From: Octopus vulgaris
Taxonomy: Eukaryota
Assembly: GCA_951406725.2 (NCBI GenBank)
Contig: OX597823.1
Span: 13,392,001-13,456,000, forward strand
DNA: 64,000 nt
Direction of reading: 5' to 3'
Positions 1 through 7,819 of this stretch are shown here, piece after piece. Within the stretch, counting starts at the first letter, position 1; each line of letters opens with the position of its first letter. The translations under genes were made by a program, and so were the position numbers. The notes beneath the pieces were generated by a model. It saw nothing but the letters and a program-made list of their open reading frames with translations. It did not search any database and was not told the DNA's origin.

Positions 1-997
1 ACGAACTTTCCGGACAACCCAATATATCCGTATGTATGTATGTATGTATGTATGTATGTATGTATGTATGTATGTATGTGTGTGTGTTTTATGTATGTTT
101 GTATTCATGTATGTATGTGTGTATCTATGTCTGTATATGTATGTAAAGAAGGAAATATTTTATGAAGCGCCGGTGGTTAGCCAATATTTTAACACACCTC
201 TTCAGTTAGCTGCTTAAATTTAACAATCTGTTTGCTAAGCTATAACAGTTTAAACCTCGATTTATGTATAGCAATATCGGCAATAAAAATATCAAAATAT
301 CACTTCATTAAAATATTTCATTAATATAATATAAGCTAAAATCTGATAACCAAATTAGTATGGTATATGTTTGAAAAAGTCAGTCTCAGAAATTGACAAA
401 GAATTTTTTTTTCTCGAGTGTATTAATGAAAGTAACGTTTCAATGTTTAAGACGTTAACTTAATGTAAGGAAGTTTAGCGTAAGCCTGCAGTTTGTTAAC
501 TGAATTGGTGGATCTGGAGTAACTGTCAAGGAAGACACTTTTGGATCAGAAGGTCAGGAAGCGACTACACGAGGTGATGAATATGAAGTTCCAAATCAGT
601 TCATGGATATAATCTTCTATGATGAGCTGCGGGTAATGTGACATTAGCATTGCAAGAACAAATGAAGTCGAGGGTTAGGCAGGGCGATAGATAAGTTACA
701 TGAAATAACCATAATTAACCGCACTATACAGATGGAGGTTAAAATATCTGTGGATAGAAAACGAAGGAGGAACGTGCAGAAATTGTAGTATGGGGGAAAA
801 TAAGAGATAAGCGTACATACGTAAATGAGCAGTTCAACCGATACATAACTCTATGCACACATATATTTCGATTCTTTCTGCATGTATTTATATACATATG
901 TATGCATCAATCTACACACATACACACGCACATATAATGTATATCTATATAAAATGTGTATATGTTTATGCATATATATATATATATGTGTGTGTGA

Positions 998-4760: not shown

Positions 4761-6289
4761 TTTATATAAATATACACACATACGCACGCACACACACATA
4801 CACATACATACATACGTGTGTGTGTGTATTTAGATGCATGTATACCTGTGTGTATTCTTGAGTAGGTTTCTAAAAGAAGTATAGTTACATTTGCCACTCA
4901 CACATTCAGCTATATTTATTTTGTTTATGGTTATACATATATGTGTGTACTACTCTATGTGTGTGTGTGTGAGCCAGAACATATGCTCACGCACATTTGT
5001 CAGGGTGTATATGTGTGTGTGTATGTTTATATACACATATGCATATACATCTATGCGTATCTCGGTATGTATATGTGCACGTACCTATGAGTGTGTGCGC
5101 AGTAATTTCCCTTAAGAAAAGTGACAATTACTCAGCTGCACATAACAAGAAAATGAGTTAGAAAAATCTAATAAAAATAACAGCCATCTTTAAAAGAAAA
5201 CAACTAAATTTTACTGAAATATGAGACTAGTGAACCGTAAAGCATTAAACTATGCAACTTGTTTCTTCGTTGATGCTATTGATCTCGCAGCCACCTGCAA
5301 AGAATTCTTATTAGCAATGTGAAACAAAAAAATTAATACTAAAAGAACAAATAATATGCAAACACAAATGAATATCATTTTCTTCAGAGAAAAAAAAAAC
5401 GTATATATGAAGCAAACATTCTTTATCTCGCAATACTTGATGTAAAACTATTATAAATTAGCTATTCTTCAAAGAGCTGCTATAAAGTAAGATGAGTTAG
5501 CACGAGGTGAACGATTTTATACTTACATTTTACACTAATATCGTTAATAGAAAAGGAAAGAGAAAATAACAGAAAATAAAAATGTATAGATTGTTACCGA
5601 CGCACTTATTTTAAAGGTAATATAATTAAAATATTTCTTATGCTTATTATAAACTCTTGGACGTTTAATATTGATATTCTTGCATAGGCATAAGCCAACT
5701 CTTGATGTTTGATTATTCATGACATTAGGAATAATTTCTTGTCGCATTTTTTTGCTTCGGTGTTTTACATTCTGGGTTCTAAACCCATCCCATCAAAACT
5801 GATCCCTTTGCGGAGTCGGTGAGATATTTATTAGAAAGGGGCTGTTTGGAAGAGTCATTACAGTCTCGGGTATGATTTTTTACAATAGTTGTGAAAGCTT
5901 AATATACACTGAGTTAAAATTCTACCGAGGTAACATTGCTTGCATCATTTGGGGATTGATAAATAAGTATCAGTTCCGCAGAGAGATAGATTCTTCTCTT
6001 CAGTTCACTCTTTCTTTCTCTTTATCGGTCTCTGTGATTTTTACTGCTGGAATAAAACGAAGCAAGTGAGGGTTGGGCTCCATCAGTTCTAAAATTGCCG
6101 GTGAGACGTTTCTTACGACGGTGCCTCTACACCTCCCTCAGGAATTGAGAATCCATCACATTTCTATATAATACTTAACCTAGTACTGGAAATTGATACG
6201 ATAATGATATAAAATTCCTTTTTCAATTTGATTTTAGCTCTTGGCGACATCCACTTGAGATTTATTTTCCGGAGAACGATATATATAAT

Positions 6290-6618
6290 ACAATTGCAGC
6301 GTGGAAGGTGTTTGTAAGCCATTTAAGAAACACACAAAAGCCGTTCGATTCACTTCAACATTTAAGTTTAATTGGTCAAAATATTTTCGTGGCTTTAAGA
6401 CCGCGACCTGTTCATAGATGCAGCACGGATTTTTGTCAGTGAACAGGTCGCGGTCTTAAAGCGACGAAAATATTTTGACAAATTAAACTTAAATGTTGAA
6501 GTGAATCGAACGGATTTTGTGTGTTTCTTAAATGGCTTACAAACACCTTCCACGCTGCAATTGTTTTCGTTTCAGCACACGATCTCAGATCAAATCACTT
6601 GCTATGCAAGTACATCTC
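6290..6618 (+). mobile_element. Foldback PLE-type non-autonomous element with 13-bp flanking direct repeat
   Basis: Inverted arms 6290-6414 / 6440-6564 (about 125 bp, few mismatches), unique 3' tail 6565-6618, flanked by cgatatatataat at 6277-6289 and 6619-6631. Confidence 0.8.
6432..6482 (+). ncRNA. Minimal hammerhead ribozyme, G3:C8 variant
   Basis: tttgtca-GTGAACA-g-gtcgc-ggtcttaaa-gcgac-GAAA-atat-TT-tgacaaa; 7-bp helix I, 5-bp helix II, palindromic AATATT helix III. Confidence 0.7.
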
Positions 6619-7819
6619 CGATATATATAATGGAGCAGACGATAAGTTGGAATATTTCAGGTTGTGACTAAATTCCTTACAGTATTTAATTATGAATTTT
6701 AGCATTCTGATTTGATGTTGACTTGTCCTGTACATGTAATCTGCTAGTGGGATTTTTTTCTTTTACTTCACAACATCATTCTTATGCTAGAGGTTAACAT
6801 AAATAACCATCCTGGACCAGCTATATTTTTCCGAGAACAAAATATTAGACACCATTTCGATACTCGATTCAATTCGTTTTATTCTTGGTAACGCTAGCAT
6901 ATTCTGAAAAAGTCATTAATACAATATTTAATTTTCTCTTTTAAGTGGTCCCGTTATAAATATATACATATTTAATTTTTCTGCAAAATGGAAACAACTT
7001 TTCTTATGCTTAATATGTTCATTTCTCCATTCTCTGTCCACTTTGCCCATATTAAATTCCCTATGCAAATAAACAAATGTGAATATAATCTATCTCACGG
7101 ATATTTACTTTCCAAGAACTTATGGTGGAAAAGCACCAATACCCTCCAACACGACTACACTCTCTACTATTGAAATACTATTTAAACACTAAATTCATAA
7201 TCCTAATAATGATATAAAATTGCGCAAATTTTAAATATCATTATTTCTAAAATAATAGTGATATTTTATAGTGACATCAGCTGAATTTTTAACTCAGACC
7301 TGACTGGCACAGAATTTTTTTTAAATTCTTTGACACAATCATAGGAATAAACGCGGTGCATATTTTTATTTTTATCTATGTATTTATTAATTCCTTTTTG
7401 TCTGAGCCTAAATGTTATGTGAAAAGAAAAAAAAAACGTAATGCCAAGAGCGGATCTGTCAACCAATATGTGCAACTAAATGGATTCTGGTAAACATGAC
7501 CAAGGCTAGATTTTGGTGATAAAACAGATAACTGGTTACGTTTACCAACCAAAAACGTAGCCGGCTCACAGACAGTGTGTATCTAGCAAATTTTACTTAA
7601 ATGACTTCGGTCAACTGGAGAGACGGATAGAAAATATTTGCAAAAGATGTCATAGAGATGATGTGAAATAGAACCTGAAAAAGGCAGCAGTAACAATGAT
7701 AATATACTTTCTAACTAGTCAGGGTCATTCTTTTTTCATATCTCTTTCCATCTCTCACTAATAGTAACATTCTTGTTGGCTTCTGTGTTCTGTTATATAT
7801 ATGTCTTTATATATAAATA

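What the first reader, a model, noticed from the sequence alone, without database searches (positions are those of the whole stretch)
6277..6631. 329-bp foldback element with 13-bp target duplication and a G3:C8 hammerhead
Seen: ~125-bp inverted arms, a unique tail, flanking cgatatatataat repeats, and an HHR with perfect 7-bp helix I and 5-bp helix II whose core GTGAACA swaps C3:G8 to G3:C8; predicted cleavage after UUU at 6475. The inverted arm stops at U4, so only one orientation has a full ribozyme. Inference: a clean recent insertion of a PLE-derived unit with an uncommon natural core variant.
Basis: partly seen in the sequence, partly recalled or inferred. Interest (0 to 1): 0.75.

Follow-up and report, generated by a model that had tools for sequence, protein, structure and literature searches.

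The report
Penelope leader foldback with swapped hammerhead
This is one of thousands of short copies of the front end of a Penelope-type jumping gene, here two copies joined head to head; the family carries a hammerhead RNA motif whose central base pair is swapped (G3:C8), predicted but not shown to cut, and the copy ends suggest that both cut DNA strands likely prime copying during insertion.

Summary
Observation confirmed. 6416-6620 is the 5' leader plus the first 89 coding bases of a Penelope-like retroelement (PLE) whose RT/GIY-YIG copies lie elsewhere in this 2.8-Gb genome. 6290-6414 is an inverted shorter copy; the 13-mer is a normal target duplication for the family (12-14 bp in 24 of 37). 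G3:C8 is family-wide: 5,534 exact 22-mers and 52 of 52 ORF-linked repeats. A sister PLE keeps C3:G8, so the swap is derived. I found no natural G3:C8 in the papers I could search; cleavage is untested. Family statistics point to a mechanism: 100 of 100 arms end at one of two sites, 51 of 52 foldbacks pair one long with one short end, and 5' ends pile up at one base, often with an extra G (79 G, 21 C), never at the cleavage site. Likely both nicked strands prime cDNA on uncleaved, capped RNA and the cDNAs are joined. 'Recent' needs qualifying: the site is filled in other runs and no empty allele was listed.

The parts
6277..6289 (.). left copy of 13-bp target-site duplication
   Evidence: family TSDs 12-14 bp in 24 of 37 non-microsatellite foldbacks
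6290..6414 (-). inverted short arm: unit positions about +25 to +149, ending at the family's 'short' 3' site
6416..6620 (+). direct long arm: PLE 5' leader + ORF start, ending at the family's 'long' 3' site
6416..6416 (+). fixed 5' boundary of short copies; inferred transcription start (capped)
   Evidence: 41 of 100 arms start at -3..+4; extra G in 79 of 100 listed solos in AT flanks
6432..6482 (+). type I minimal hammerhead: helix I 6432-38/6476-82, helix II 6447-51/6461-65
6439..6446 (+). core with G3 (6439) and C8 (6444), A9, extra G before helix II
   Evidence: 50 of 62 unbiased arms carry this exact 8-mer
6467..6476 (+). perfect 10-nt palindrome giving an intermolecular helix III; predicted cleavage after 6475
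   Evidence: cleavage inferred from hammerhead numbering, untested
6532..6620 (+). first 29-30 codons of the PLE ORF (start codon 6532)
   Evidence: 39% identical over 104 aa to the N-terminus of an intact 1309-aa sister ORF
6565..6620 (+). PLE 'tail': stretch between the two 3' end sites, present on one arm only
   Evidence: PMC11167929, PMC8557442
6619..6631 (.). right copy of the target-site duplication (first 2 bases shared with the element end)

Best explanation
The feature is two head-to-head copies of the 5' leader of an abundant Penelope-like retroelement, with a family-wide G3:C8 hammerhead that is predicted (not shown) to cleave only as a dimer, and it was likely made in one insertion in which both nicked DNA strands primed reverse transcription. 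SHOWN: family membership, link to an RT-GIY-YIG ORF, two fixed 3' ends (ORF nt ~30 and ~90), one fixed 5' boundary, long+short pairing, AT-rich 12-14 bp duplications, derived G3:C8. INFERRED: the endonuclease makes a ~13-nt staggered cut; one strand primes at the long site and the other at the short site; each cDNA runs toward the capped 5' end of an uncleaved RNA that starts at 6416, so a transcript begun in the repeat yields only its own leader; the two cDNAs are then joined, here with the short one stopping at 6440. LESS CERTAIN: at least some insertions use two RNA molecules, and the helix III palindrome would be the natural place for them to pair. The inserted foldback itself is likely inert as a ribozyme, because a transcript through both arms folds into one long hairpin.
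For: Link to ORF: 29 of 30; read-through into ORF; GIY-YIG PF01541 E 1.6e-5 in a 1000-aa frame. 3' ends: 37 at +145-155, 63 at +198-210, 0 elsewhere of 100; the sister family ends at homologous ORF positions (~26 and ~82). Long+short in 51 of 52 unbiased and 83 of 94 of all foldbacks, against ~47% if ends were chosen independently. 5' ends: 41 of 100 at -3..+4, 0 of 100 at +58..63 where the ribozyme would cut. Base before the boundary: G 79, C 21 of 100 listed out of 164, whereas the element's own upstream base is C or T in 12 of 12; contig loose ends at 6416 also end in G in three runs. Arms from different subfamilies (loop II types A and B) in 5 of 22 pairs by strict match, 7 of 28 with six rows assigned by eye. 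No core or helix III column has >10% minor alleles; 5 of 9 loop II columns do. PMC11167929 (parts 1-2 read): a PLE protein cleaves and extends both strands, starts RT at two sites that bound the tail, uses unprocessed RNA, and engineered C3G/G8C partly rescues cleavage. Hairpin sequestration: P(helix I), P(helix II) = 0.00 in 6290-6620 versus 0.76 and 0.99 in 6416-6620.
Against: No cleavage data. About 41 of 100 listed copies with G3 and non-C8 carry G8 (A 16, T 43; 379 in all), both arms do in L250 and L267, and read-through copies L228 and L232 do too: a mismatched G3.G8 core seems to have transposed. The sister family has C at position 9. In 8 long ORF-bearing foldbacks only 1 of 14 arm differences was shared with other copies, so no two-template signal there; mixed short pairs mostly differ only in loop II and are fewer than the ~48% free mixing would give. 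All 52 ORF-linked repeats seen have loop type B; the window copy is type A, and no intact type-A source was found. Conservation of core columns (3.2% minor alleles) is only a little above the 3' leader (5.6%), and no covarying pair was seen within the helices. The 5' boundary also looks like a splice acceptor. Sense-strand RNA, its start and its cap were not observed.
Confidence: 0.78

Rival explanations
1. Snap-back: one cDNA reaches the RNA 5' end, folds back by microhomology and copies itself, giving the inverted arm; only one priming event on RNA.
For: Arms share loop type in 21 of 28 pairs; arms of long foldbacks are nearly identical; many junctions show microhomology.
Against: The short arm ends at the same site as solo short copies and either arm can be the one that reaches +1; 5-7 pairs have arms of different subfamilies; a purified PLE protein extends both strands (PMC11167929).
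Confidence: 0.15
2. The G3:C8 motif is a relaxed or non-catalytic structure (RNA pairing or translation signal); cleavage is not needed for the element's spread.
For: G3.G8 copies are in excess and appear in source-like copies; no 5' end at the cleavage site; sister core has C9; HHR mutants did not affect insertion in vitro (PMC11167929).
Against: A double transversion that restores the 3-8 pair is fixed in the young subfamilies; subfamily changes fall in loop II, not in core or helix III; engineered G3:C8 cores retain activity (PMC11167929; PMC3884650 passage, data not shown there).
Confidence: 0.4
3. The fixed 5' boundary is a 3' splice site, not a transcription start; short copies come from spliced RNA with a tiny or variable first exon.
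For: Upstream of 6416 in long copies is a branch-point-like heptamer, a pyrimidine tract and YAG; D. virilis Penelope has a 5' intron ending at helix I (PMC4209133, PMC2377424 passages).
Against: Short copies keep the AG itself; 0 of 70 copies with AC before the boundary show the one candidate upstream exon tested; no shared sequence precedes the extra G.
Confidence: 0.2
4. A DNA-transposon foldback/MITE, or a tandem circular-RNA retrozyme.
For: Terminal inverted arms and a duplication; small size and a type I hammerhead.
Against: Arms are unequal, most of the variation is at the centre, many copies are solos, and the unit is part of an RT-EN element; no tandem array at the site; ends do not map to the cleavage site.
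Confidence: 0.02

Closest known systems
Poseidon_Ac (PAc) of Anolis, PMC11167929 (parts 1-2 of 4 read)
   Same: Hammerhead next to the ORF start; two RT start sites inside the ORF that bound the tail; AT-rich targets; both strands cut and extended; uncleaved RNA is the template.
   Different: PAc has natural C3:G8 (G3:C8 only engineered); its ORF starts in stem II, here 50 nt after the motif; tail ~57 nt; this ORF has a Cys-rich linker. Fixed 5' boundary, extra G, strict long+short pairing and mixed-subfamily arms are not in the parts read.
Minimal PLE hammerheads, PMC4209133 (parts 1-2 of 4, supplement file 2 parts 1-2 of 3 read)
   Same: Extra base between 9 and 10.1, G10.1-C11.1, palindromic helix III, U17 common; most copies solo or in close opposite-strand pairs.
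   Different: None of the 56 representatives has G3:C8 (nearly all C3:G8; a few U3 variants); helix I here is 7 bp.
Neptune/Nematis-type EN+ PLEs, PMC8557442 (passages)
   Same: C-terminal GIY-YIG with a CX2-5CxxC linker; inverted 5'-truncated copy; tail at one end; (TA)n targets.
   Different: Clade not tested by a tree; tail longer than the 30-40 bp given there.
Sister PLE family in the same genome (P0003, named Octopus vulgaris hypothetical protein by NCBI; L314)
   Same: 54% identical protein; same layout; 3' ends at homologous codons.
   Different: C3:G8 core with C at 9 in 36 of 38 motifs; many unbroken 1,300-aa frames.
Non-LTR retrozymes (PMC7229834 passages; bioRxiv 2026.07.22.740005 part 1 of 5)
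   Same: Short non-coding units with type I hammerheads, related to PLE repeats.
   Different: Retrozymes are head-to-tail tandems made through circular RNA; these are dispersed solos and foldbacks with target duplications whose ends ignore the cleavage site.

Membership tests
EN+ Penelope-like element | single ORF with RT and C-terminal GIY-YIG | tested here: met
   1025-aa open frame in L160 with DKSG and YVDD motifs read directly; GIY-YIG E 1.6e-5, no Pfam RT hit for L160; weak RVT_1 hit for the relative P0003. The window holds only the first 30 codons.
EN+ Penelope-like element | pseudo-LTR shared by both ends of the ORF | tested here: met
   unit after the ORF in 29 of 30 and before it in L221, L222 and others
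EN+ Penelope-like element | tail at one end; inverted 5'-truncated copy | tested here: met
EN+ Penelope-like element | RT groups with PLE RTs in a tree | not tested
   no named reference PLE proteins were on hand; homologues are mostly unnamed
Neptune/Nematis clades | CX2-5CxxC linker before the GIY-YIG | tested here: met
   C-x3-C-x2-C read in L061 and L160; definition from PMC8557442
Neptune/Nematis clades | clade placement by phylogeny | not tested
   none
minimal type I hammerhead of PLEs | helices I and II, extra base 9/10.1, G10.1-C11.1, palindromic helix III | tested here: met
minimal type I hammerhead of PLEs | consensus core C3 ... G8 | tested here: not met
   G3 and C8; pair kept by a double swap
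minimal type I hammerhead of PLEs | self-cleavage after N17 (as a dimer) | not testable with these tools
   only assembled contigs were available
non-LTR retrozyme | head-to-tail tandem monomers, ends set by the cleavage site | tested here: not met

The most novel reading that the evidence does not exclude
A thriving octopus PLE family runs on a natural, active G3:C8 hammerhead whose palindromic helix III pairs two element RNAs; a protein dimer then primes one RNA at the long site and the other at the short site from opposite strands of one cut, so every foldback records a two-RNA integration ending at the caps.
Probability: 0.27. Interest if true: 0.78.

Novelty: new variant of a known kind. 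Interest (0 to 1): 0.52.

Why it matters
The 3-8 pair of the hammerhead core is known to covary to U-A in nature, while G-C was found only as an engineered rescue in the papers searched; here it is fixed in thousands of copies, next to a close sister with the usual pair and a minority with the mismatch, which makes a natural series for testing how much cleavage a PLE needs. How PLEs finish integration and why they leave inverted copies and one-sided tails is open; the near-strict long+short pairing, the fixed 5' boundary with an extra G and the mixed-subfamily arms give sharp predictions for the existing in vitro system. Consensus-based hammerhead searches would miss this family.

Tried and rejected
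Rfam: nothing at gathering score; E-value hits are hairpin artefacts. A 70-codon open frame across the unit found no homologue and is not the ORF frame. Canonical C3:G8 inside the family: 0 of 19 double-changed copies (2 of the 19 are not family members); a looser pattern gave 6 hits, of which 2 are family copies with the canonical core. Spliced copies with one candidate donor: 0 of 70. G3.G8 as a single tight subfamily: not supported, the 20 copies fetched span older loop types like the T8/A8 controls. Two-template test on long foldbacks: negative or uninformative. Expression: no RNA holder listed; contigs cannot show starts or cleavage. Empty site: none among 15 of 98 joints shown, which does not exclude one. 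Earlier findings of this scan: none returned. Luense et al. 2017 and Przybilski and Hammann 2007 are not held, so not read. No tree was built.

Full report
Observation. The window shows arms at 6290-6414 and 6440-6564 with 3 mismatches in 125 bp, an exact 13-mer at 6277 and 6619, and a hammerhead-shaped stretch at 6432-6482 with 7-bp helix I, 5-bp helix II and core G3 U4 G5 A6 A7 C8 A9. Rfam does not detect the motif.

Family. The genome is 2.8 Gb in 227 contigs. A 22-mer across the core has 5,534 exact matches, a 22-mer further 3' has 7,166, and reversed controls have 0. A stretch of a protein that NCBI names as from Octopus vulgaris matches this genome at 100%, so the animal is likely an octopus.

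Autonomous partner. Two pattern hits 2.5 kb apart enclosed a GIY-YIG frame (L061). Searching with it gave 150 scored matches of 7,830 candidates; 29 of the 30 loci fetched have the unit within 1.5 kb. L160 holds a 1025-aa open frame with RT motifs, a C-x3-C-x2-C linker and the GIY-YIG domain. In L221, L222, L231, L232, L235, L237 and others the unit runs straight on into the ORF. The start codon is window 6532, and this N-terminus is 39% identical over 104 aa to that of an unbroken 1309-aa sister ORF. The finding is therefore the element's leader, hammerhead and first 30 codons. L163, which holds a near full-length copy of this family, has a stop and a frameshift; no unbroken full-length copy of this family was seen.

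Ends. I took all 100 listed matches of the 3' pattern (contig C1, first 40 Mb), a sample blind to the ribozyme. Their 3' ends fall at +145-155 (37) or +198-210 (63) and nowhere else. The sister family stops at the homologous codons. This is the two-site tail signature that PMC11167929 (parts 1-2 read) traced to two RT start sites. 5' ends: 41 at -3..+4, 49 scattered further in (10 of them at +16, probably alignment clipping), 10 further upstream (2 look like microsatellite artefacts), and 0 at +58..63 where the ribozyme would cut. Where eight A/T bases precede the boundary, the intervening base is G in 79 and C in 21 of the 100 rows listed out of 164 (counted by eye; three C rows look like one duplicated locus), while the element's own upstream base is C or T in 12 of 12. 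An added G at the end of a cDNA is the known trace of copying a cap (my knowledge, no call). A splice acceptor reading is possible from the upstream sequence, but 0 of 70 copies show the one upstream exon tested.

Foldbacks. Of 94 distinct head-to-head junctions 83 pair a long with a short end; in the unbiased loci 51 of 52 do, against about 47% for independent choice (a few loci are duplicates of one insertion). Of 37 with non-microsatellite flanks 24 have a 12-14 bp duplication, 10 a 6-10 bp match and 3 none; 84% of the letters are A or T. The arms carry different loop II types (A and B) in 5 of 22 pairs by strict match and 7 of 28 when six unclassified rows are assigned by eye. Against this, such pairs mostly differ only in loop II, and in 8 long foldbacks only 1 of 14 arm differences is shared with other copies. 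I conclude that both strands prime (likely), and that two RNAs are used at least sometimes (about even odds).

Core. 50 of 62 unbiased arms have the exact G3...C8 8-mer, as do 52 of 52 repeats next to ORF sequence, from 40 of 42 loci, some overlapping. Canonical C3:G8 is absent from 19 double-changed copies and present in 2 family copies under a looser pattern. The sister family (54% protein identity) has C3...G8 in 37 of 38 motifs, with C at position 9 in all 38, so G3:C8 is derived. Subfamily changes concentrate in loop II (5 of 9 columns above 10%) and spare core and helix III (0 of 17), but the core's mean minor-allele rate of 3.2% is only slightly below the 3' leader's 5.6%. 379 copies have G3 without C8; among 100 listed, 41 have G8, 43 T, 16 A (counted by eye). 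G8 is on both arms of L250 and L267 and in read-through copies L228 and L232. A mismatched core thus seems to have been copied, which fits either an evolutionary intermediate or relaxed need for cleavage. I put activity of the G3:C8 dimer at about 55-60%.

Literature on G3:C8. Searches for hammerhead with G3-C8 (1 paper), C3G and G8C (2 papers), the core 7-mers (none relevant by listing) and octopus (1 paper) gave only engineered cases: partial rescue in PMC11167929 and a passage in PMC3884650. PMC3088659 (passages) and PMC4209133 report natural U3-A8; none of 56 representatives in the latter's supplement has G3:C8. Luense 2017 and Przybilski 2007 are not held; figures and supplements of PMC3088659 and PMC8557442 were not seen and may hold a natural case. 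Searches listed no paper on two-template or cap signatures in PLEs; the library lacks most subscription journals.

This copy. The direct arm has no private difference from the family's commonest letters outside 16 diagnostic columns, the inverted arm has 2. Contigs from runs X16 and X15 enter the element from both flanks and X17 from the left; the right flank differs from the window at 16 of about 560 bases. The insertion is thus young but shared with other individuals or close species. No empty allele is among the 15 of 98 joints shown. A transcript through both arms would be one hairpin that hides the ribozyme, so the copy is probably a dead product. Both its arms have loop type A, for which no intact source was found.

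Verdict. An ordinary product of PLE mobility whose family has an unusual core and unusually clean end statistics: new variant of a known kind, interest 0.52.

Noticed in passing
L314 (G000:C17:6329000-6338900) and L289-L319: A very young sister PLE family with many unbroken frames of about 1,310 aa in ~4.6-kb tandems; its hammerhead has C3:G8 but C instead of A at position 9 in 38 of 38 motifs.
   Followed up: partly
genome-wide, e.g. L250, L267, L228, L232, L234: Excess of a mismatched G3.G8 core (41 of 100 listed among 379 non-C8 copies), including both arms of some foldbacks and copies that read into the ORF.
   Followed up: partly
L046:1579-2121 (+), also L154 about 6.3 kb away: An uninterrupted 180-aa dCMP-deaminase-like ORF (PF00383, E 5e-28) begins about 40 bp from a family copy on the opposite strand; the same insertion flank recurs in L154.
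   Followed up: partly
L234:1-1333: At least eight short units, each with a TA run, repeated head to tail next to an ORF start.
   Followed up: no
L041, L043, L075, L076, L078, L079: The same foldback junction recurs at several places on contig C1, probably inside a larger duplicated repeat.
   Followed up: no
L160:1900-2900 and L061: The element's 3' UTR is about 1 kb and largely (CATA)n/(TA)n microsatellite, ending in a branch-point-like, pyrimidine-rich YAG just before the unit.
   Followed up: partly
window:6417-6626 (+): A 70-codon open frame covers the whole unit in a frame other than the ORF's; no homologue found.
   Followed up: yes
L034, L058, L096: Several foldback junctions contain short repeated pieces of the unit's first bases, as if priming or joining had been tried more than once.
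   Followed up: no
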